This document shows, piece after piece, positions 8,280 to 60,175 of a stretch of 64,000 nt of DNA (within the stretch, counting starts at the first letter, position 1; each line of letters opens with the position of its first letter). The notes below the pieces were generated by a model. The model was not told the DNA's origin. It was given only the letters and a program-made list of their open reading frames with translations, and searched no databases. The stretch comes from Octopus vulgaris (lineage: Eukaryota). A program made the position numbers and the translations under genes. Location of the stretch: the NCBI GenBank assembly GCA_951406725.2, contig OX597833.1, forward strand, positions 13,702,001 to 13,766,000, given 5' to 3'.

Positions 8280-8778
8280 TTAATCACACACATGCACACA
8301 CTCACAGGTGTGTGTGTGTGTATGCATATATGTGTATGGAAGCATGGTGATGCTATAATATCACTGTTGGTTGAGAAAGTATGGCTGGACAACGCCAAAG
8401 TGTGAGACACCCGTCCAAGCAGAGGCCTTGTAGTGAGTGGCCAGTGACCCATCTCCGACAGCAAGATGGTTGGCCCTGAAAAAACTGGATCAAACCAGTT
8501 GCAAACAGGGGCCTCATAAGTGGAAGCCCTAACAAGCACAGTAAAGCGTTGCGTTAGTTTACAGTGCGGGGTTTAACTGAGGCCCAATTTTAATACTGTG
8601 CCCTACTGAAATAGAGGGAGCACAATGTTGCTAAATAATACTTAGCTCCTTTGTGAGTCTTAGACTCAAAGGGCTGGTTTCCTGGAGTCCCTGGCGTATG
8701 TACTCCCTTCGTCACAAGTATACCTAATTTTCCATTATTTACATTTGACGGATATTTGTCCTCATCTTGTTTGCTGTT

Positions 8779-8824
8779 AACACAACGTTTCGGCTGATAT
8801 ACTCTCCAGCCTTCATCAGGTGTC
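8779..8824 (-). ncRNA. Minimal type-I hammerhead ribozyme motif
   Basis: GACAC-CTGATGA-A-GGCTG-(10-nt loop)-CAGCC-GAAA-CG-TT-GTGTT: intact core, 5-bp stems I and II, palindromic ACGT in place of stem III. Confidence 0.8.
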
Positions 8825-9069
8825 TTGGGAAAATTTCGTACCTGTGTTCTCATTCCTAAGGCATTTATTTTTCGATGTTAATATTATTATTATTATTATT
8901 CAGGTCACTGCTTGGAATCGAACTCGGAATCTTAGGGTTAGTAACCCACACTCTTAACCACAATGCCATATGCCATAGGCATATATGTGTATGTATATAT
9001 ATATAATTATATATATATATATGTATAATTATATATATATGTATATATATATATATGTATAATTATATA

Positions 9070-9114
<45 letters not shown>

Positions 9115-9259
9115 GCATATGGCATAGTTGTTAAAAATGCAGGCTACTAACCCCAAGATTCTGAGTTCGATCCCAGGCAGTGACCTGAATAATAACAATA
9201 ATAATAACAACATCGAAAAATACCTTGGAAATGAGAACCCAGGTTCGAAATTTCCCCAA

Positions 9260-9305
9260 GACACCTGATGAAGGCTGGAGGGTATTACAGCCGAAATGTT
9301 GTGTT
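9260..9305 (+). ncRNA. Minimal type-I hammerhead ribozyme motif (CpG-decayed stem III)
   Basis: GACAC-CTGATGA-A-GGCTG-GAGGGTATTA-CAGCC-GAAA-TG-TT-GTGTT. Confidence 0.72.
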
Positions 9306-9769
9306 AACAACAAACAAAATGAGGACAAATATCCGTCGAATGTAAATAATGTACCGAATTCCTCATCTCTTGAATATAGAAGTGTATACCTAATTTTGCC
9401 AGGTGAACAAACTGAAACAATGTGGAGTGAAGAGTGTTGCTCAAGAACACAATGCAATGCCCGGTGAAAGGATCGAAACCATGACCTTATGACCATGTGT
9501 CCCAACATCCTGACCACTAAGGTATCGTGCCTCCCACAAATTGTACAAAAGCTGACGGATAAATACAAGAAAAATATCTCCAAACACATACACAAAAAAA
9601 AAAAAACAAATGGCCCCTAATTCTGTGGGGTGACAGTAGCAGTTTTTTAAAGATGAGGACATCAAGGCCCCAAATGAAAAAAAGGGAAGGAAATGCCTTA
9701 AAATAATTAGCAATCTCTTTCATGAAGGAATTATGGTTTTTTTTTTCTTTCAATAGAGCTGGGAAAAAG

Positions 9770-12011: not shown

Positions 12012-13202
12012 TTAATCCTTTTGCATTTAAACCAACCATCGCTGGCTGGATCTGGCCTCTCACACCAATCCTACACGGTCATTCTAAAAATAAACAATCA
12101 CATCATTGAAATCCCGAAGCTATGGTAGGGTCTGATATAAAACTTTAGTGTTTAAAATGACTCATTCTGATAGAAATAACAGCCATATCTGGATCAAATA
12201 TTCTATCTGTTTTATGTCCAAACTGGCCAGATCCAGCCTCTTACACCTACCCTACAATGTCATTCTAAAAATAAACAATCACATCATTGAAATCTTGAAG
12301 CTATGGTAGGGTCTGATATAAAACTTTAGTGTTTAAAATGACTCATTCTGATAGAAATAACAGCCATATCTGGATCAAATATTCTATCTGCTTTATGTCC
12401 AAACTGGCCGGATCCAGCCTCTTACACCTACCCTACAATGTCATTCTAAAAATAAACAATCACATCATTGAAATCTTGAAGCTATGGTAGGGTCTGATAT
12501 AAAACTTTAGTGTTTAAAATGACTCATTCTGATAGAAATAACAGCCATATCTGGATCAAATATTCTATCTGTTTTATGTCCAAACTGGCCAGATCCAGCC
12601 TCTTACACCTACCCTACAATGTCATTCTAAAAATAAACAATTGCATCATTGAAATCCCGAAGCTATGGTAGGGTCTGATATAAAACTTTAGTGTTTAAAA
12701 TGACTCATTCTGATAGAAATAACAGCCATATCTGGATCAAATATTCTATCTGCTTTATGTCCAAACTGGCCGGATCCAGCCTCTTACACCTACCCTACAA
12801 TGTCATTCTAAAAATAAACAATCACATCATTGAAATCTTGAAGCTATGGTAGGGTCTGATATAAAACTTTAGTGTTTAAAATGATTCATTCTGATAGAAA
12901 TAACAGCCATATCTGGATCAAATATTCTATCTGCTTTATGTCCAAAGTGGCCAGATCCAGCCTCTCACACCTACCCTACAATGTCATTCTAAAAATAAAC
13001 AGTCACATCATTGAAAACTTGAAGCTATGGCGGGGTATAATTTAACTTTTCAAAATTTAAACCCACCATATTTGGCCCAAGTATTCTACCTATTTCTACT
13101 TGCTTCTTCTTCAAACTAGCTAGATCCAGCCTCTCACACCTGCCCTACACTGTCATTCTAAAAACAAACAAACACATCGTAATTTGAATGCTAAGGGGTT
13201 AC
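12012..13202. repeat. 181-bp tandem array (about 6 units) inside a TTAA/piggyBac-like MITE
   Basis: Marker tatgg recurs at 12121, 12302, 12483, 12664, 12845 and 13026. Outer ends are ttaatccttttgcatttaaa and tttgaatgctaaggggtta. The same core is dispersed at about 16150-16480, 36340-36575 (-) and 58320-58471 (-). Confidence 0.85.
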
Positions 13203-24892: not shown

Positions 24893-26484
24893 TGTGTGTG
24901 TTTGTGTGCGTGTGTGTTTGTCCCCCTAGCATTGCTTGACAACCAATTCTGGCGTGTTTATGTCCCCGTTACTTAGCGGTTCGGCAAAAGAGACCTATAG
25001 AATAAGTACTGGGCTTACAAAAGAATAAGTCCCGGGGTTGAGTTGCTCGATAAAATGCAGTGCTCCAGCATGGCCGCAGTCAAATGACTGAAACAAGTAA
25101 AAGAGTAAAAGATATATATATATATATGTACACGATGGGCTCATAAAGTGGCACGTAAAAGCAGCTCTGTGGTGCAATGTAAAAGCACCCACGTGGTGTC
25201 ACATAAAAGTGCCTGTGCCATGTAAAAGCACCCATGCTGTGCCACATAAAAGCACCCAGCACACTGTGTAAATGGTTAGCTTTACGAAAGGCGGCTTCGA
25301 GCTGTGGAAACCATGTCAAATCAGAGTGGAGCCCAGCTCTGCTCAAACCTATTTCTTTACTACCCACAAGGGGCTAAACACAGAGAGGACAAACAAGGAC
25401 AGACAAACGGATTAAGTCAATTATATCGACCCCCCCCCAGTGCGTAACTGGTACTTAATTTATCGACCCCGAAAGGATGAAAGGCAAAGTTGACCTCGGC
25501 GGAATTTGAACTCAGAACGTAGCGGCAGATGAAATACCTATTTCTTTACTACCCACAAGGGGCTAATCACAGAGGGGACAAACAAGGACAGACAAACGGA
25601 TTAAGTCGATTATATCGACCCCAGTGTGTAACTGGTACTTATTTAATCGACCCCGAAAGGATAAGAGGCAAAGTCGACCTCGGCGGAATTTGAACTCAGA
25701 ACGTAACGGCAGACGAAAAACCTATTTCTTTACTACCCACAAGGGGCTAAACACAGAGGGGACAAACAAGGACAGACAAACGGATTAAGTCGATTATATC
25801 GACCCCAGTGCGTAACTGGTACTTATTTAATCGACCCCGAAAGGATGAAAGGCAAAGTTTATCAGGTACACACACACACACAAATGTATATTCTTTCTTT
25901 TACTTGTTTCAGTCTGCGGCCATGCTGGAGCACCGCCTTTAGTCGACTCAAATCGACCCCAGGACTTATTCTTTGTAAGCCTAGTACTTATTCTATCGGT
26001 CTCTTTTGCCGAACCACTAAGTTACGGGGACCTAAACACACCAGCATCAGTTGTCAAGCAATGTTGGGGGGACAAACACAGATACCAGATGGCTGCACCA
26101 GGCTCCAATCTTGATCTGGCAGAGTTTCTACAGCTCGATGCCCTTCCTAACGCTAACCACTTTGAGAGTATAGTGGGTGCTTTTACATGCCACTGGCAAA
26201 AGGGCCAGTCAGTGGTTCTGGCAATGACCACACTCAAAAGGTGTTTTTTATGTGCTACCTGGGGGGACAAACACAGACAAACACACACACACACATATAT
26301 ATAAATATACGACGGGCTTCTTTAAATTTCCCTCTACCAAATCCACGGCGGAATTTGAACACAGAACGTAAAAACGGGACGAAATACGGCTTCGCATTTC
26401 GCCCGGTGTGCTTACGTTTCTGCCAGCTCTGCTCAAACCGTCCAACCCATGCCAGCATGGAAAACAGACGTTAAACGATGATAC

Positions 26485-32527: not shown

Positions 32528-35500
32528 CTAACCATGTGAAATATAGTACGTGAATAATGTCCAATATATTTACTCTGATAATGTATACACAAGCAATAAC
32601 AACAAAGATAATGAGGAAGAGGTGGAAAAGGAGAAGAAGAGGAGTGGGAAGAGAAGGTAGGAAGTATGAATAGCTGAGATTGCTGAGGAGAGAGAGAGGT
32701 GGGGGAGAACGAATGTGTTGGGACAAATAACAGAAGAGCAGAGTGACAGGATACTAGTGGCTGGTAAGTAACAAGGAGACAGTGACAGCTACATCTGGCT
32801 TGTTGGTAATGACATTTAATAGAAAGAAACAACACAAGACTGACAGGATAGTAATAAAGATGGGTGATCATAAGACAGAGCTAGAAATGAAATAGGAATA
32901 GATATGGGGGATGGATGGTGAATGTGAGTGGTAGAAGGAAATCAAGAGTGACACAGGGGAGAGTGAGTGATAGTGGTCAGTAAAGAAGGGGGATGGTTGA
33001 GGTTCTAATCATGGGGCGGATCTCAATATACAATGATTTTCAGTGTTCTTTAATTCCATTACTTCTTTCAGTCATTTGATTGTGGCCCAGCTGGAGCACT
33101 GCCGTGGAGCATTTTTGGGAAACAATTCGACTCCACCTGGCACAGAGGCACACTCCTCACTTTGTGATTCCCATGTTTTGCAGGCACTTAGTCACAGGGA
33201 TATTTTCCCTTTCTAGATATTTTGTGCCACCTCTAGTGCTGGTGGCACACACAACCCTCCCCAGACTTGTACTTTGGAGTGAACTTTCTAGGTGTAATAC
33301 CATGGTCATTCATGACAGAAGAGGGGGGAGGTCTTTACCCAATACGCACACATAAAGAAAAGCTCCCAATTCATACTGTAAAGTGGTAGGCGTATGGAAG
33401 AGCATCCAGCCATAGAAACTGTACTGAAGCTTGCAGTGGAGCTCTGTAACTTGCCAGATCCTGTCAAATCCATCCAATCCATACCAGCATGGAAAATGCA
33501 TGTTAAATGATGATGATGATGATGATGATGGTGGTGGTGTTGATGGTGATGATGATGATGGAGAAGTTGGTGGTGATAGTGATGAAGTTAGTGGTGGTGA
33601 TGACGATGATGATGATGATGACGAAGATGATATTTGGGGTATTGTATGATTTGTCGAAAACAAATCTTTCATAATTGTTATTAATTACGAGTAATTATTA
33701 TGATTGCTATTAATTATTATAATTATTACTTAAGGAATTGTAAACGTTATGTTAAACAGATTGATTTAGGACACAATTATTTCATCATCATCATCATTGT
33801 CATCACCACCACTAACTTCATCACCATCACCACCAACTTCACCATCATCATCACCATCATCACCACCAACACCATGTTGATGGAAGAGAAGCAGATTGAT
33901 AAAAGAAATAAGATGGAAGAGAGGGTGCGATGGTGGTGGTGGTGGTGGTGGTAAGAGCTTGAGTGATGGAATGGACTGAGTAAAGATTGAACAAATCCTG
34001 TCCTTTGTGGCACAGACTGAGGTACAGTGAGTAGGGGGACATGAAAGAAAAGGGTCAGATATGGAGATGACTAGGACCTAATGTGACCCCCATCACCACA
34101 CCCATTATTTTTTCTTTTTTTTTCTACAATAGGCATGAGGGATGAAATTTCAGGGGAGTGGGGCAAGGGGGGTCTAGTGAAGTAGTACATTGACCCTAGT
34201 GCCCAACAGATACTTATTTTATCAAAATAAGTACCTGTTGAAAGGGTGAAAGGCAAAGTTGACCTCGGTGGAGTTTGAACTCAGATCGTAAAGAGCTGGA
34301 AGAAATACCCATTTCTTCACTACCCACAAGGGGCTAAACACAGAGAGGATAAACAAGGACAGACAAAGGGATTAAATCGATTACATCAACCCCAGTGCGT
34401 AACTGGTACTTAATTTATCAACCCCGAAAAGATGAAAGGCAAAGTGGACCTCGGCGGAATTTGAACTCAGAATGTGGCGGCAGACGAAATACTTGCTTCT
34501 TTATTACCCACAAGGGGCTAAACACAGAGAGGATAAACAAGGACAGACAAAGGAATTAAGTCGATTACATCGACCCCAGTACGTAACTGGTACTTCATTT
34601 ATCGACCCCGAAAGGATGAAAGGCAAAGTCGACCTCGGCGGAATTTGAACTCAGAACGTAGAGCAGACGAAATACAGCTATGCATCTCGCCCAGCGTGCT
34701 AACGTTTCTGCCAGCTCGCCACCAAGCAGTGCATCCAATGTGCTAACAATCCTGCAAGCTCGCTGCCTAACCATCATAACAATCATTTTGCAATGCTTGC
34801 ACGAGTGGATGAGTCTTCTCCTGCATCCGGAGTCATCACTCATCATAGTTCTTTGTCATCTCTTTTGCAAGGTTCCCTTTCTTGAGGGTCTGTCTTTACC
34901 ATTCTGTTCCGAGTCATTGGTGCCAAGCTGTATCAGCCTTTGCCTTTCCTTTGGTTATCATCGGTGGCGTGGAGAGGGGGAGGCCGGTATGAACCTGGAA
35001 CCATGTGGTTGGGAAGCAAGCTTCTTACCACACAGCCAATCCTGCGCCTATATATATATATTCTTTTCTTTTACTTTAGACATCTGACAGTGGCCATGCT
35101 GGAGCATTGCCTTGGAGGGTTTTAATTGAACAAATTGACCTCAAGACTTAGTTTTTTAAAGCCTAGATCTTATTGGTTTCTTTTGACAAACTGTTAAGTT
35201 ATAAGGATGTAAACACACCAACACTGGTTGTTAAGCAGTGGTAGTGGTGGTTGAACAAAACCAGAGCCAAAAACAAACACACACACACACACACACACAA
35301 ATATATACATATATATATACACACACACATATATGATGGGCTTCTTTCAGTTTCCATCTACCAAATTCACTTACAAGGCTTTGGTTGGTCTGAGGCTACA
35401 GTAGAAGACACTTGCCAAAGGTAGCATGCAGTGGGACCGAACCCAGAACCATGTGGCTAGGAAGCAATCTTCTTAATTCTTTACTGCCCACAAGGAGCCA

Positions 35501-39617: not shown

Positions 39618-39855
39618 TACACAGAAAAGAGAAACAAGGAGAGAAAAAAAGGAGAGAAAAAAAAAATATATATATATTCTTCTTTTACTTTTTCTAGTCA
39701 TTTCATTGCGGCCATTATTGATGATAATAGCGATGAGGATGAACATGATGATGCTGATGATGATGACGGCAACAATGATGATAATACAGTTCTATATTTA
39801 AGAGATGAGGAATTATGTACATTATTTACATTTGACGGATGTTTGTCCTCATCTT

Positions 39856-39901
39856 AACACAACATTTCGGCTGATATACCCTCCAGCCTTCATCAGGTGT
39901 C
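39856..39901 (-). ncRNA. Minimal type-I hammerhead ribozyme motif (CpG-decayed stem III)
   Basis: Reverse complement reads GACAC-CTGATGA-A-GGCTG-GAGGGTATAT-CAGCC-GAAA-TG-TT-GTGTT. Confidence 0.72.
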
Positions 39902-40157
39902 TTGTGGAAATTTTGAACCTGGGTTCTCATTCCTAAGGTAGTTTTCGATGTTGTTATTATCATTATTATTATTATTATTATTATTATTCAACTCACTGCC
40001 TGCAATGCCACGGCCATATGGCGTAGTGGTTAAGAGCGTGGGTTACTAACCCCAAGATTCCGATTTTGATTCCAGGCAGTGACCTGAATAATAATAATAA
40101 TAATAATAATATCGAAAAATACCTTAGGAATGAGAACCCAGGTTCAAATTTCCCCAA

Positions 40158-40200
40158 GACACCTGATGAAGGCTGGAGATTATATCAGCCGAAACGTTGT

Positions 40201-40249
<49 letters not shown>

Positions 40250-40253
40250 TTGT

Positions 40254-40284
<31 letters not shown>

Positions 40285-40374
40285 TCGAAAAATACCTTAG
40301 GAATGAGAACCTAGGTTCGAAATTTCCCCAAGACACCTGATGAAGGCTGGAGATTATATCAGCCGAAACGTTGT

Positions 40375-40408
<34 letters not shown>

Positions 40409-40501
40409 TCGAAAAATACCTTAGGAATGAGAACCTAGGTTCGAAATTTCCCCAAGACACCTGATGAAGGCTGGAGATTATATCAGCCGAAACGTTGTGT
40501 T
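40158..40501 (+). ncRNA. Three tandem identical hammerhead motifs (40158-40203, 40332-40377, 40456-40501)
   Basis: Each reads GACAC-CTGATGA-A-GGCTG-GAGATTATAT-CAGCC-GAAA-CG-TT-GTGTT. Spacings are 174 and 124 nt, differing in (AAT)n content. Confidence 0.8.
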
Positions 40502-42480
40502 GACAACAAACAAGATGAGGACAAATATCCATCAAATGTAAATAATGTAAATAACGAACAATGATGATGACGATGAAGATAGCAATGATGAGAATGATGA
40601 TGACGATGATGATGTCGATGGTGATGACGATGATGATGAACATGATAATGACAATGATGATGATGACAATAGTGATACTCTCTTTTACTTGTTTCAGTCA
40701 TTTGACTGCGGCCATGCTGGAGCACCGCCTTTTTTTTTAGTCGAGCAAATCGACCCCGGGACTTATTCTTTGTAAGCCCAGTACTTATTCTATCGGTCTC
40801 TTTTGCCGAACCACTAAGTGACGGGGGACGTAAACACACCAGCATCAGTTGTCAAGCAATGCTAGAGGGACAAACACAGACACACAAACATATACACACA
40901 CATACATACATATATATATATATATACATATATACGACAGGCTTCTTTCAGTTTCTGTCTACCAAATCCACTCACAAGGCTTTGGTCGGCCTGAGGCTAT
41001 AGCAGAAGACACTTGCCCAAGATGCCACGCAGTGGGACTGAACCCAGAACCATGTGGTTGGTAGGCAAACTACTTACCACACAGCCACTGATACATAAGG
41101 AAGTCTGAGTGTAGATTTTCTTTCTCTCTCTCTCTCCAGTTACTCATCACCAAAACATATCCAAACCCAGACGCTCATACACCCACAGTTTCCAAGACTA
41201 ATTCTAGCTTTCTTCGGTGCATCTCACTGCTTTATTCATTAACTTAACTTAGATTTAGCCTTGGGATGTCTAATACGACAAAATACAACACCATCAACTG
41301 AGAAGTTGCTGAAATATTAATGATTCTATAATTAAAGAATTCACTTCAATAATTCAATGATGAAGACTAATAGAATACCAGAGAGGTGAGTAAGTACATG
41401 GATCCGCTACAGAACAATCTAGAACAACAGTTATGGCTGAGTATACCTCAGGCAGTGCCAGTATACATGTGGTATGGCTTCTCTCTCTAATTAGTTGCAT
41501 TCATGATTTGATCTGATGGACTATCAAGCAGGTTCCATTCTTCTGGTTTCGTTCACAATGTCTGGGGCCGATTCCAGGCACTGGGAAGAAAATGCCAAAC
41601 TCGCCCACCCCTGCCTACGAAAAATGCAGCACAATGATGCAGAGATGTGGCTGTGAGGGTAAGAAGGCTTTCTTCCCAACCATGTGACCTTGGGTTCAGT
41701 TACACCATGGGGCACCTTGGGAAGGGGCTCAAGTGTCTGTCCCCTAATATAGGTCCAGTCTGAGATCCAAGGCCTTGTGAATGGATTTGGTAGGTGGAAA
41801 CTGAAAGAAACCCATCGTGTATGTATGTATGTTACATTCTGAGTTCAAATTCTGTCAAAGTACCAAAGTAAACTTTGCCTTTCATTCTTTCTTTTTTTTT
41901 GGGGGGGAGGGTGATAAATTAAGTACCAGTTGTGTACTGGGGTTATTGTAATCAACTTACCCCTTCTCCACAAAATCCAGGCCTTGTGCCTGTAGTAGAA
42001 AGGATTATTATTATTATTATTATTGAGAAGTCTTTTTCTTGTGAGTGAGAGAACATACGAAATAATATTTCCACACAATTCATTTTTTGTCCCATTTTAA
42101 GTGTCCAAGTGGCTGTAATGTGATCTACTGGAATCCAGACTGGCTGGAGTTGGTCACCAGTTGGGGTTTTTGCTTCTTTTAAATTTGACGATGCAAAACT
42201 CTGTTGTTTCTCGTTTATTTCTCTCCTTTCAACACTTCTCCAAAGAAGGACACTGTCCGAAACATTGAGTTTTCCACTCTGCACTGCAAGTTCACCGTAC
42301 GCATTTTATTCAATTTACTATATGTGTGCATGTGCGTGTGTGTATTACACACAACTGACATACACACACACTCAAGAATAACTACGCATGCATAGACATA
42401 AACACACATGTACTCATGAACACACACACACGCACACACATGCAGAAACATAAACACACACCAATAAGCAAAGATATAGG

Positions 42481-42906: not shown

Positions 42907-45126
42907 GGTATGAACACCCACACAAACTCCCACACACATACACACCTTTACAAACTGACATACACTAACACATATCTACAAACACACACACACACACTTA
43001 TGTTGTGCCTCACTTTTCTATAATTACAGCTTAATTTGTACATTTGAGTTGCTTTCTTAAGCAACTGTACTGTAATGTTATCACTTTCATTGCCCCTGTG
43101 GCACATACTGGAAAAATCGATTGGAATGATAACATGATTACAGAGCGAAGGGAATAAAAAAAAATAAATAAAATAAAACTGAGAAAAAGAAAAAGAAAAA
43201 AGAAAAAAGAAATGTTTCGTGATGAATGACAAAAGGTGTGGAGGTGGTATGGGAGCTGACTGATAATTGGAGAAGAACAATTATCAAAAGTTCAATAATG
43301 AATTATAAAATAGCATTTCCCCCACCAACACCAATACTAGAATGCTGGCAAAATTATAATTTTATTTGAAATTTTATATTTTATTTTTGCTGCTATTTTT
43401 TTTTGCCCTATATTTTGTTTTTATCAAAAATATTAAAAAAATATATAAATACATTTAAAAAAAAAGGTTTCTGGGCATTTAAAAAAAAATTTGTTCTTGT
43501 TTTCATTTGAAATTTATACTTAGAAGGCATGATTAATTTAGTATAATAACAACGAGTTGCAATTGCAACAATAACACCAATGACACCAACAAAAAGCTGA
43601 ACAATAGAAGCACAACAACATTTAGAATAATATCAACAGCTGGACTAGTATTTCAAAAACACCAGCTGCAACAACAACAACACCAACAACAACATCAAGG
43701 ATGTGTGTTTTCCCTAATGTAAAAGCAAAACAAGCCTCCAAAAAACAAGAAACAGGAGCCCGTTTGTTTCCCCTACCTCAAACAAATATTGACACACCCT
43801 TTACAAAAACTGGATATTTAACAACTCTGCTGACCCCAGAATTGAACCTGAATCCTGAATTCTACATCGTCACAATATGAGTATTATACTACAACCATCA
43901 ACATCACCACAGTCGTCGTCGTAGTAGTAGTAGTAGTAGTAGTAATAATAATAATAATAATAAATGAAAATGGTGCCGAGTTGGCAGAAACGTTAGCACA
44001 CCGGGAGAAATGCTTCGCAGTATTTCGTCTGTCTTTATGTTCAGAGTTCAAAATCCGCCGAGGTCGATTTTGCCTATCATCCTTTCGGGGTCGATAAATT
44101 AAATACCAGTTGCGCACTGGAGTTGATCTAATCGACTGGCCCTCTCCCCTGCAAGATTTTGAGCCTTGTGCCTGGAGTAGAAAAGAATAATAATAATAAT
44201 GATTTCAAATTTTTTGCCACAAGGGCAGCTTGGGTAAGGGGATTAAGTCGATTACATCGACCCCAGTGCTTCACTGGTACTAATTTATCGACCCCAAAAG
44301 GATGAAAGGTAAAGCCAACCTCAGTGGAATTAGAACTCAAAATGTAGCAACAGGTTAAATACTGCTAGGTATTTTGCTCAGTGTCCTAACGATTCTACCG
44401 GCTCACCGCCTTTTCCACAAGGGCAGCTTAGGGGAAGGGATGAAGTCTATTACATCGACCCCAGTTTTTCACTGGTTCTTAATATTTCGACCCCGAAAGG
44501 ATGAAAGGCAAAGTCGATCTCAGTGGAATCAGAACCCAGAACATGCCAGCAGGCTAAATACCATAAAGCATTTTGCCCGGCAATTCTCCCAGCTTTTTAC
44601 TAAAGGCACAAGGCCTGAAATTTGGGGTGAGGACCAGTCGATCACATCTACCCCAGTATTTCACTGGTACTTAATTTATTGACCCCGAAAGGATGAAAGG
44701 CAAAATTGACCTTGGTGGAATTTGAACTCAGTATGTAAAGATGGACAAAATGCTTCTAATATATACATATATGTATGTATATGTATGTATGTATGTATGT
44801 GTGTTTGTGTGTCTGAGTTTGTCTCCCAACTTAGCGGATCGGAAAAAGAGTCCAATAGAATAAGTACTAGGCTTACAAAGAAAAACTCCTGGGGATGACT
44901 TGTTCGACTAAAAGGCAGTGCTCCAGCATGGCCACATTCAAATGACTGAAACAAATAAAAGAATATACACACACACACACACATACATACACTTGGCATT
45001 ATTTAAAAAATTCTTTTTATGTCGTATTTGTGTGTGTGCATGTGTGTGTGTGTACGTGTACATATACATATATATATACATATATATAGTTTACATCTAG
45101 TGAAATGAAGAACAGAAAATGGAAAT

Positions 45127-57453: not shown

Positions 57454-58698
57454 TAATGCTTATATATTTACGTTAAATAAGCATTATTTAAATAAGTAAT
57501 GCTTATTTATTTAAATAAGCATTGAATAAATTTAATGCTTATTTATTTATATAAATAACAGTAAATATTTACGTTATTTACGTATAAATAAGCATTTATT
57601 TATACGTAAATAAACGCTTATTTATTTACGTTATACGTAAATAAATAATGCTTATTTATTTATGTATGGTACTCTTAGTGGAGTGCTAAGAGAACCATAC
57701 GAGCTTGATCGTTGCCAGAGCAACAAGCTGGCCTCCGTACCGATGGGCACATAAAAAGCACCATTCAAGCATGATCATTACCTGTGTCACCTTACTGGCA
57801 CTTGTGCGGGTGGCACGTCGAAAAAATCATTCGAGCGAGGTCGTTGCCAGTGCCGCTGGACTGGCTCCGGTGCAGGTGGCACATAAAAAGCACCATTTGA
57901 GCATGGCCGCTGCCAGTACTACCTGACTGGCCCTTGTACCAGTGGCACGTAAAAGCACCCACTACACTCTCGGAGTGGTTGGCGTTAGGAAGGGCATCCA
58001 GCTGTAGAAAGTCTTGCAGATCAGATTGGAGCCTGGTGCACCCATCTGGTTCGCCAGACCTCAGTCAAATCGTCCAACCCATGCTAGCATGGAAAGTGGA
58101 TGTTAAACGATGATGATGATGATGATGTTGTTGTCTTAGGAATTAGTTGCTGTGTGCAAGAGAGGAAACTGCACCGGATTGGTCATGTGATGCATCCAGC
58201 CATAGAAACCATACCAAATCAGACTGGATTCTGGTGCATCTCCCCAGCTTGCCAGCTCTGGTCACACCATCCAACCCATACCAGCATGGTCAACAGGCAT
58301 TAAATGATAATTATGTCTTGAATTAATCATACATTATCTCATAGCTTTGAGATTTCAACGACGAGATTGTTTATTTTTAGAATGACATTGCAGAGTGGGT
58401 GTGAGATGTTGTATCTGACCAGAGACAGAATATTTTGGCCAAATATGGTCAGTTTGAATGCTAATGGGTTAACTCAGTAAAGGACATGCTCCAAATAAAG
58501 ATAGATGATTCCATGAGTGCCAAACTCTTAACCTTCGTAACTGGTCCAAATGATATAAACTGAAAAGGACTTTGTCAATCCATCAACCTGATGAAACAAA
58601 TGCTGTCAATGGCTGGTTTTGAAGTGTGACAGCCAATCAGAGATCATCTTTCAGTTGATGTATCTCAACAGAAAAAAAAAAAATTGGGATTCCAAACA

Positions 58699-59021
58699 CA
58701 CCAGCTGTCAAGTGGTAGTGAGGGCACAAACACACACACACACTCACTCATATATATGTGATGGGCTTCTTTTAGTTTCTGTCCACCAAATCCCCTTACA
58801 AGGCCTGGGGTCCACTAAAGGCCTGGGGCCATAGTGGAAGATATTTATCCAATTTGCTACACCAGCTGTCAAGTGGTAGTGAGGGCACAAACACACACAC
58901 ACACTCACTCATATATATGTGATGGGCTTCTTTTAGTTTCTGTCCACCAAATCCCCTTACAAGGCCTGGGGTCCACTAAAGGCCTGGGGCCATAGTGGAA
59001 GATATTTATCCAATTTGCTAC
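58699..59021 (+). repeat. Recent 161-bp tandem duplication of a degraded SINE family 1 fragment
   Basis: ccagctgtcaagtggtagtgagggcac starts at 58701 and 58862; the two units are near-identical, including private mutations. Confidence 0.85.
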
Positions 59022-60175
59022 ACCGTGGGGCTGGACTCAATACCACATGGTTAGGAAATAAGTTTCATAACCACACAGCCATGGTGGTGATGGTGGTGGT
59101 GATGATGGTGGTGGTGATGGTGGTGGTGATGATGGTGGTGGCGGTGGTGGTGATGGTGGTAGTGGTGATGATGGTAGTGGTGATGATGGTGGTGGCGGCG
59201 GTGGTGGTGATGGTGGTAGTGGTGATGATGGTAGTGGTGATGATGGTGGTGGTGGCGGTGATGGTGGTGATGATGGTGGCGGTGATGGTGGTAGTGGTGA
59301 TGGTGATGATGGTGGCAGTGGTGGTGGTGGTGATGGTTGTGGTGGTGGTGATGGTGGTGGTTGCGATAGTGCTAGTGGTGGTAGTGGTAGTAGTGGAGGT
59401 GGTACTCGTGGTGGTGGCAGTGCTAGTGTTGGTGTTGGTTCTGGTGGTTGTGGTACATGGCTGAATAAAGATGAATGAACTATCAGGAAAAAGTGTGGGA
59501 TGGAGAAGGGTGGAGGGGAGTCGGGGTTGGACGGTCGGTGGGAGGGTGCTTCTCAGGAGGTGGGGGGCGAGGACCTTAGACCCTTCACAATAACTAAACA
59601 ATTCAACCAAAAAAAAAGAGATCAGGTACTGTGCGTTCAGTGACGCGTGCGGTTTATCTCCATCCTCATCTTCCGGCAGAGAAAAAACAAACCTGTTGAT
59701 CTCCCTCAACATCTCCCCCACCCCACCCCTCACTTTCTCCTTCTTCTATTTCCCTCTCTCTGCCTCTCTCTCTCTCTCTCTCTCTGTCTCCCTGTCTATG
59801 CATCTTATCTCCATACCCATCTTCTGTCAGAGAAAGCAAAAACAGTCAACTGCTTTCACTTTGCATCCACTCCTCATCTCTCTCTCTCTCTCCCTTCTCC
59901 TCACGGTTTCACTTTCACTTTCTCTCTCTCTCTCTATCTCTCTCGTTCCTAGTTTCTCACTCACCCTCTCTTCTTCCTCTTCTCTCCGAATGTCCAAACT
60001 GTTCCGCTCCAGCTTCCCGGAGCAGAACAACTCAAGCAAAGACAAGTAGAAAATGATGTTTTATTAACTGAGCAGATCAATTAAGAGCTGGAGAGAGAGA
60101 TAGAGAGAGAGGAGAGAAGAGAGAGGGAGAGAGCAGACAGACAGAGCGGAATAGAGCAGACAAACAGACAAATAA

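What the first reader, a model, noticed from the sequence alone, without database searches (positions are those of the whole stretch)
40110..40553. Three tandem intact hammerhead units behind one tRNA head: a retrozyme-like array
Seen: three identical ribozyme motifs with predicted cut sites after 40198, 40372 and 40496, which would release monomers of 174 and 124 nt. All three keep the ACGT palindrome, whereas two of the three single copies of this family have decayed to ATGT. Established: minimal hammerheads need a partner, and tandem-hammerhead retrozymes produce linear and circular monomer RNAs. Inference: adjacent units could supply each other's partner in cis. The head's box B is mutated here (GATTTTGATTC, creating a T4), so Pol III drive may be lost. 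Simple (AAT)n-mediated slippage or an assembly artefact is an alternative explanation.
Basis: partly seen in the sequence, partly recalled or inferred. Interest (0 to 1): 0.72.

Follow-up and report, generated by a model that had tools for sequence, protein, structure and literature searches.

The report
Locally triplicated Penelope hammerhead end
Three copies of a predicted self-cutting RNA motif sit in a row inside one decayed end-piece of a very common Penelope-type jumping gene, likely because a short stretch was duplicated twice in the DNA long after insertion, and nothing shows that this array is expressed or spreads.

Summary
The array is real as sequence: three identical minimal hammerhead cores with predicted cuts after 40198, 40372 and 40496, behind a tRNA-like head whose box B is broken. 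It is not a separate retrozyme family. Head, (AAT)n, body, hammerhead and tail form the terminal repeat of an abundant Penelope-like retroelement (8,262 exact core motifs in the genome). The three units share rare changes that this arm lacks, units 2 and 3 are identical, and the exact junction occurs only here. This points to two local DNA duplications after insertion. Seven other loci carry such arrays, each with its own junction; one has 17 units, most with a damaged stem II. Keeping ACGT is the family's normal state (28 of 47), and three related units count as one observation. The cis dimer is possible on paper but predicted 8-17 kcal/mol less stable than an inactive fold. Public contigs could neither confirm the array nor show transcription. 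Verdict: an ordinary example of a known route from Penelope end repeat to hammerhead minisatellite.

The parts
39787..40006 (-). Inverted, 5'-truncated arm of the same compound insertion: 3' stub of the head, (AAT)n, body, hammerhead core with ATGT (39857-39900) and the long tail ending at 39787
   Evidence: (inverted arms 92% complementary); 22 of 29 sampled family loci have such a head-to-head piece
40007..40086 (+). tRNA-like head (label from box A/B motifs, recalled; ARAGORN finds no tRNA in the window): box A-like TGGCGTAGTGG at 40018-40028; box B broken, TTTT at 40064-40067
   Evidence: the same segment follows the PLE ORF end directly in 17 of 20 ORF-bearing loci
40087..40203 (+). Unit 1: (AAT)8, body with one private deletion, minimal hammerhead 40158-40203, predicted cut after 40198
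40204..40283 (+). Junction 1: (AAT)15, an extra GTTGTGTT (40249-40256), then (AAT)9; this 50-bp extra piece explains the 174 versus 124 spacing
40284..40377 (+). Unit 2: body and minimal hammerhead (40332-40377), predicted cut after 40372
40378..40407 (+). Junction 2: (AAT)10 joined directly to GTGTT
   Evidence: the exact junction occurs only at this locus
40408..40501 (+). Unit 3: body and minimal hammerhead (40456-40501), predicted cut after 40496; identical to unit 2 over 97 columns
40497..40554 (+). Short form of the Penelope 'tail' (about 50-57 nt), 3' end of the insertion
   Evidence: family copies end mostly at this point or about 25-35 nt further on

Best explanation
This is one old insertion of the terminal repeat of a Penelope-like retroelement (inverted arm plus forward copy) whose 124-bp hammerhead segment was likely duplicated twice in the DNA after insertion, making a small minisatellite that is probably inert. 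Shown: family identity, architecture, pattern of shared changes, uniqueness of the junction. Inferred: the first duplication joined GTGTT just past the hammerhead back to the (AAT)n tract (a TAA microhomology is available) by slippage or break repair; unequal exchange then copied unit 2/3 again; a further 50-bp slip or collapse lengthened junction 1. Inferred: with box B broken and a T4 inside the head, Pol III would rarely make the trimer; if the locus is read through, each unit would mostly fold into an inactive form in which core GAUG pairs with CGUU, so cleavage would be weak at best and need a chaperone such as the element's protein.
For: The ORF end runs straight into the head in 17 of 20 loci; those ORF pieces hit RVT_1 (E 3e-9, 1 of 5 fragments) and GIY-YIG clusters (score 0.97, Pfam share 15-20%). 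The three units share three changes from the family majority (3/34, 4/47 and 0/47 in the sample), the inverted arm shares none, and arm and units differ at 7-8 of 97. Arms of one insertion normally diverge almost independently (13 of 66 shared versus 131 of 1167 for random pairs), so the arm works as a clock. Units 2 and 3 share one further change and unit 1 has its own: a two-step history. Exact junction: 2 of 2 matches are here. The 12 other copies with the same loop variant are single and heterogeneous. Head-to-tail core pairs: 15 matches at 7 loci including this one, plus L033, against 8,262 motifs; each locus has its own junction and period. In the 17-unit array only 2 cores are fully intact, so expansion does not need a working ribozyme. 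Dimer penalty 11-17 kcal/mol in context, about 8 for minimal pairs.
Against: The dating rests on a handful of changes. Repeated template jumps by the reverse transcriptase on one already mutated RNA would also give shared changes, and in several other arrays the junction coincides with the normal 3' ends; arms sometimes do share changes (L069, L071). The folding model ignores the hammerhead's tertiary core and had no known-active control, so the penalty is probably overstated. All three cores, stems I-II and palindromes are intact. One of 29 sampled loci was a direct tandem, so tandems may be commoner than exact patterns show. No RNA data bear on this locus.
Confidence: 0.78

Rival explanations
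1. The three units were laid down in one retrotransposition event: the Penelope reverse transcriptase jumped back from the (AAT)n tract to just 3' of the hammerhead on the same RNA, and the differences arose later.
For: Complex tandem and inverted insertions are typical of PLEs (PMC8557442 passages); the anole enzyme cuts ATT motifs, also in its own repeat (PMC11167929); other arrays join at the usual 3' ends.
Against: Needs the inverted arm to come from a different RNA (no shared change) and units 2 and 3 to gain the same change twice or by conversion; the junction here is at neither usual 3' end nor the cut site.
Confidence: 0.1
2. The array is a working nascent retrozyme: read-through RNA folds into cis double hammerheads, releases 174- and 124-nt monomers, and these circularise.
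For: Three intact cores; nested dimer pairing is possible; it would meet the sequence-only definition of an 'active' non-LTR retrozyme in bioRxiv 2026.07.22.740005; dimeric and trimeric minimal hammerheads showed some, though low, cleavage in PMC4209133.
Against: No promoter evidence; box B broken; inactive fold preferred; no daughters; 8 of 9 predicted Xenopus dimers did not cleave in that preprint; the anole PLE hammerhead cut only with protein and no RNA-seq reads began or ended at its cut site; expressed animal retrozymes carry canonical, not minimal, hammerheads.
Confidence: 0.07
3. One unit (2 or 3), or the whole triplication, is an assembly artefact.
For: Units 2 and 3 are identical; the public contigs laid here did not cover the array.
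Against: The assembly has 227 contigs for 2.8 Gb, which implies long reads (inference); unit 1 differs from 2 and 3, AAT tracts differ, junction 1 has a 50-bp extra piece; diverged arrays of the same kind exist at other loci.
Confidence: 0.05

Closest known systems
pLTR of EN+ Penelope-like elements with minimal type I hammerheads (Cervera and de la Pena 2014, PMC4209133; anole PAc, PMC11167929)
   Same: C-terminal GIY-YIG ORF upstream in longer copies, minimal core with an extra base before stem II, long stem II, 5-bp stem I, palindromic ACGU, two 3' end points (tail), inverted 5'-truncated arm
   Different: The repeat carries a tRNA-like segment and an (AAT)n tract; here a sub-pLTR piece is repeated without tail between units
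Animal non-LTR retrozymes (PMC7229834; bioRxiv 10.64898/2026.07.22.740005)
   Same: Head-to-tail units with a type I hammerhead in each; origin from a PLE end repeat by local amplification is the route that the preprint proposes
   Different: Minimal, not canonical, hammerhead; three units at one locus; no dispersed family; no evidence of RNA or circles; 124 nt is below the 150 nt lower end given in PMC7229834
Schistosoma SINE-like hammerhead repeats (as summarised in PMC6765202)
   Same: Pol III-type promoter followed by a hammerhead, multimers cleavable in cis
   Different: There every unit has its promoter and the repeats are a spreading family; here only the first unit has a head, and it is damaged

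Membership tests
Minimal type I hammerhead of PLEs | Core CUGANGA / GAAA / UH, unpaired base before stem II, G10.1-C11.1, palindromic 15.2-16.2, stem I 4-5 bp | tested here: met
   CUGAUGA-A-GGCUG...CAGCC-GAA-ACGU-U, stem I GACAC:GUGUU in all three units; features as listed in PMC4209133. Rfam hammerhead models do not hit.
Minimal type I hammerhead of PLEs | Cleavage as a dimer | not testable with these tools
   Only folding energies.
EN+ Penelope-like element end repeat (pLTR) | Lies directly 3' of an RT + GIY-YIG ORF in longer copies | tested here: met
   17 of 20 ORF-bearing loci; RVT_1 hit; GIY-YIG look-alikes; Pfam gave no hit for 4 of 5 fragments.
EN+ Penelope-like element end repeat (pLTR) | Inverted 5'-truncated arm and a tail at one end only | tested here: met
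   Long tail on the inverted arm, short tail on the forward copy; 22 of 29 sampled loci have a head-to-head piece.
EN+ Penelope-like element end repeat (pLTR) | Clade placement by RT phylogeny | not tested
   No tree was built; no intact full-length copy was sought.
Non-LTR retrozyme | At least two consecutive tandem units with a complete type I hammerhead (operational definition of the preprint) | tested here: met
   TRF arrays, three complete motifs, unit MFE -12.9 kcal/mol although in an inactive fold.
Non-LTR retrozyme | Canonical type I hammerhead with a helix III and loop | tested here: not met
   No stem III loop; ACGU only.
Non-LTR retrozyme | Dispersed family of arrays or monomers with the same repeat unit | tested here: not met
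   Junction only here; exact patterns would miss decayed daughters.
Non-LTR retrozyme | Expressed as linear and circular monomer RNA | tested here: inconclusive
   One run guessed to be RNA covered only the shared head; the array was skipped as repeat.
tRNA-derived Pol III head | Box A and box B, no internal T4 | tested here: not met
   Box A-like intact, box B has two changes and a T4 in this copy; ARAGORN and Rfam see no tRNA here, nor Rfam in the L049 stretch scanned.

The most novel reading that the evidence does not exclude
The tRNA-headed end repeat of this Penelope-like element repeatedly and independently gives birth to hammerhead minisatellites (8 loci seen, 2 to 17 units), and this young trimer with three intact cores is a birth stage of a retrozyme that already self-cleaves in cis and yields 124- and 174-nt circles that the element's reverse transcriptase could spread.
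Probability: 0.07. Interest if true: 0.55.

Novelty: new member of a known kind. Interest (0 to 1): 0.2.

Why it matters
As a single locus it matters little. As a set, the eight independent arrays in one genome are a small natural series for the proposal that animal retrozymes arise from Penelope end repeats by local amplification, and they offer ready substrates to test whether cis tandem placement is enough to switch on a minimal hammerhead. The tRNA-like segment inside a coding element's end repeat is the more unusual feature, but it belongs to the whole family and has been noted in several earlier reports of this scan.

Tried and rejected
Rfam scans found no hammerhead or tRNA model match; the MIR2606 hit at 39915-40145 only reflects the inverted arm. 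ARAGORN found no tRNA in the window. Public sequencing contigs (8 layings of 5 runs) skipped the array as repeat, so they neither confirm nor deny it and show nothing about transcription. PDB search with the GIY-YIG-side fragment gave nothing. A target-site duplication is unresolved: AACAATGATGAT stands on both sides (39771-39782, 40557-40568) but is offset from the ends and lies in GAT-rich simple sequence. Ligation of cleavage products was rejected because both junctions keep GTGTT past the cut and the extra piece starts at GTT, 3 nt before it. A source-element role was rejected because the 12 other copies with the same loop variant are single and unlike each other. Selection on ACGT was rejected. 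An ORF list of 28000-52000 was not followed up, so a host gene around the locus is neither shown nor excluded. Lunse et al. 2016 could not be read (not held); it is known here only by its title and the summary in PMC6765202. Searches of earlier findings near this place and by sequence returned nothing.

Full report
Observation. The sequence at 40087-40554 holds three head-to-tail units, each (AAT)n, a 46-nt body and a minimal hammerhead, followed once by a tail. The three 48-nt ribozyme blocks are identical; predicted cuts after 40198, 40372 and 40496 give 174 and 124 nt. The 50-nt difference is an extra GTTGTGTT plus AAT repeats in the first junction. The head at about 40007-40086 has a box A-like motif and a box B changed at two positions, which creates TTTT at 40064; none of 24 sampled family heads has a T4. 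The tRNA label rests on these recalled box motifs; ARAGORN and Rfam do not call it.

What the family is. The 17-nt 3' half of the core has 8,262 exact matches and the 44-nt core 1,658. Locus L005 showed coding fragments next to the repeat. A search with them gave 20 loci; in 17 of 20 the ORF end runs directly into the head, then AAT, body, hammerhead and tail, with gaps in some decayed copies (exceptions L019, L021, L031). The ORF pieces match RVT_1 at E 3e-9 in 1 of 5 fragments scanned and GIY-YIG clusters in the ESM Atlas at 0.97, with the family on 15-20% of members. So the unit is the end repeat of a Penelope-like element with a C-terminal endonuclease. Copies end mostly at two points of the tail, like the two reverse-transcription starts of the anole element (PMC11167929, parts 1-2 of 4 read). 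In 22 of 29 distinct sampled loci a piece of the family lies head to head upstream, the inverted arm described for PLEs (PMC8557442, passages). The copy at 39787-40006 is such an arm: it abuts the head and carries the long tail, while the forward copy carries the short one. Eight earlier notes of this scan on other copies read the family in much the same way, one of them as a separate parasite; they are unchecked AI notes and I tested only the ORF adjacency.

How the array arose. Against the majority of 47 family copies, the three units share three changes (frequencies 3/34, 4/47, 0/47). Units 2 and 3 share one more and unit 1 has a private deletion; units 2 and 3 differ at 0 of 97 columns, unit 1 at 2. 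The inverted arm shares none and differs from the units at 7-8 of 97. Across 19 arm pairs at other loci, 13 of 66 possible changes are shared against 131 of 1167 in 406 random pairs, so most divergence builds up after insertion and the arm serves as a rough clock: most of the forward copy's history passed before the first duplication. The numbers are small and some arms do share changes (L069, L071), so a one-event origin is not excluded. The junction keeps GTGTT beyond the cut site and enters the AAT tract where tail (TTAAC) and tract share TAA, which fits slippage or microhomology repair and does not fit ligation of cleavage products.

Has it spread? No sign. The exact junction has 2 matches, both here. 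A looser hammerhead-to-body pattern adds one other locus with a different join (L033). The array's loop II variant has 15 matches, 3 here and 12 elsewhere; those 12 are single, heterogeneous copies with the normal tail. Exact patterns miss decayed copies, so this is a lower bound.

Is it unusual? Head-to-tail core pairs with spacers of 29-152 nt gave 15 matches at 7 loci including this one. With L033 that is 8 loci, each with its own period (87 to about 300 bp) and junction, among them another trimer behind a head (L068), a tetramer (L067/L073) and a 17-unit array (L070). In L070 most units carry a mismatch in stem II and only 2 cores pass a strict intact pattern, so arrays expand without a working ribozyme. 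One of the 29 sampled loci was a direct tandem (L053, the same as L069), so the true rate may be above the roughly 0.1% that exact patterns give.

ACGT retention. Among 47 copies, 28 keep ACGT, 11 read ACAT and 5 ATGT; among the first 100 listed, 71 keep it (hand count; this set is biased to well-kept copies). The pattern is what CpG decay gives (established knowledge). Three units from one parent are one observation.

Could it cut? In ViennaRNA each unit prefers a fold in which core GAUG pairs with CGUU, hiding both core and palindrome (-12.9 kcal/mol). Forcing the dimer costs 11-17 kcal/mol in head-started or array-only transcripts and about 8 for trimmed pairs. In a read-through RNA the inverted arm pairs with unit 3 and its tail, leaving only the unit 1-2 dimer at 12 kcal/mol. 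The model omits tertiary core contacts and I had no active control, so these are upper-side estimates. The literature agrees on weak activity: low cleavage of dimeric and trimeric minimal hammerheads (PMC4209133, parts 1-2 of 4); protein-dependent cleavage, not needed for insertion in vitro, and no RNA-seq reads at the cut site for the anole element; 1 of 9 predicted Xenopus dimers cleaved (bioRxiv 10.64898/2026.07.22.740005, parts 1-3 of 5 read, supplements not seen). The circular RNAs shown in animals come from repeats with canonical hammerheads (PMC7229834, passages and Discussion). PMC6765202 was seen in passages.

Independent support. Twenty-two listed runs hold parts of the stretch, as expected for a common repeat. 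Contigs of five runs were laid in two calls; the array itself was skipped as repeat, so neither its existence in other samples nor its transcription could be judged. The internal differences between units and the contiguity of the assembly make an artefact unlikely (inference).

Novelty. By the sequence-only definition of the 2026 preprint the array would be counted as a non-LTR retrozyme, and that preprint already proposes birth from a PLE end repeat by local amplification and unequal crossover. Four literature searches returned no paper, by title and abstract start, on this family's arrays; most subscription papers are not covered. It works like a neutral minisatellite of a PLE end; membership of the retrozymes in the functional sense fails on canonical ribozyme and dispersal and is untested on RNA. 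Interest 0.2.

Noticed in passing
L070 (G000:C7:11041568-11044731, minus strand): A 17-unit array of 87-bp hammerhead units from the same family, with an inverted arm at one end and the long tail at the other; recurring variants suggest block duplications; most units have a stem II mismatch.
   Followed up: partly
L066, L067/L073, L068, L069, L071, L033: Further dimers, a trimer and a tetramer of the unit; most join the tail's TAAATAAT to the (AAT)n tract, close to the normal 3' ends.
   Followed up: partly
L004:1396-1462, L008:1655-1687, L042, L055: A second, non-tRNA 5' segment recurs directly before the (AAT)n tract and body in L004, L008 and L055 (a separate match in L042); it may be another repeat that ends in AAT or a target preference.
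   Followed up: no
window 40008-40016: In public contigs many joints run from different points of the inverted arm to this one place, so forward copies across the family often start at the tRNA-like head, next to a short palindrome.
   Followed up: partly
window 8777-8972 (-) and 9116-9307 (+): Two more family copies lie head to head around an (AT)n tract; probably one compound insertion.
   Followed up: partly
window 12055-13030, 25345-25858, 34240-34675, 44213-44576, 58698-59024: Other tandem arrays of 161-199 bp units, apparently from SINE-like repeats; local tandem duplication of short repeats is common in this window.
   Followed up: no
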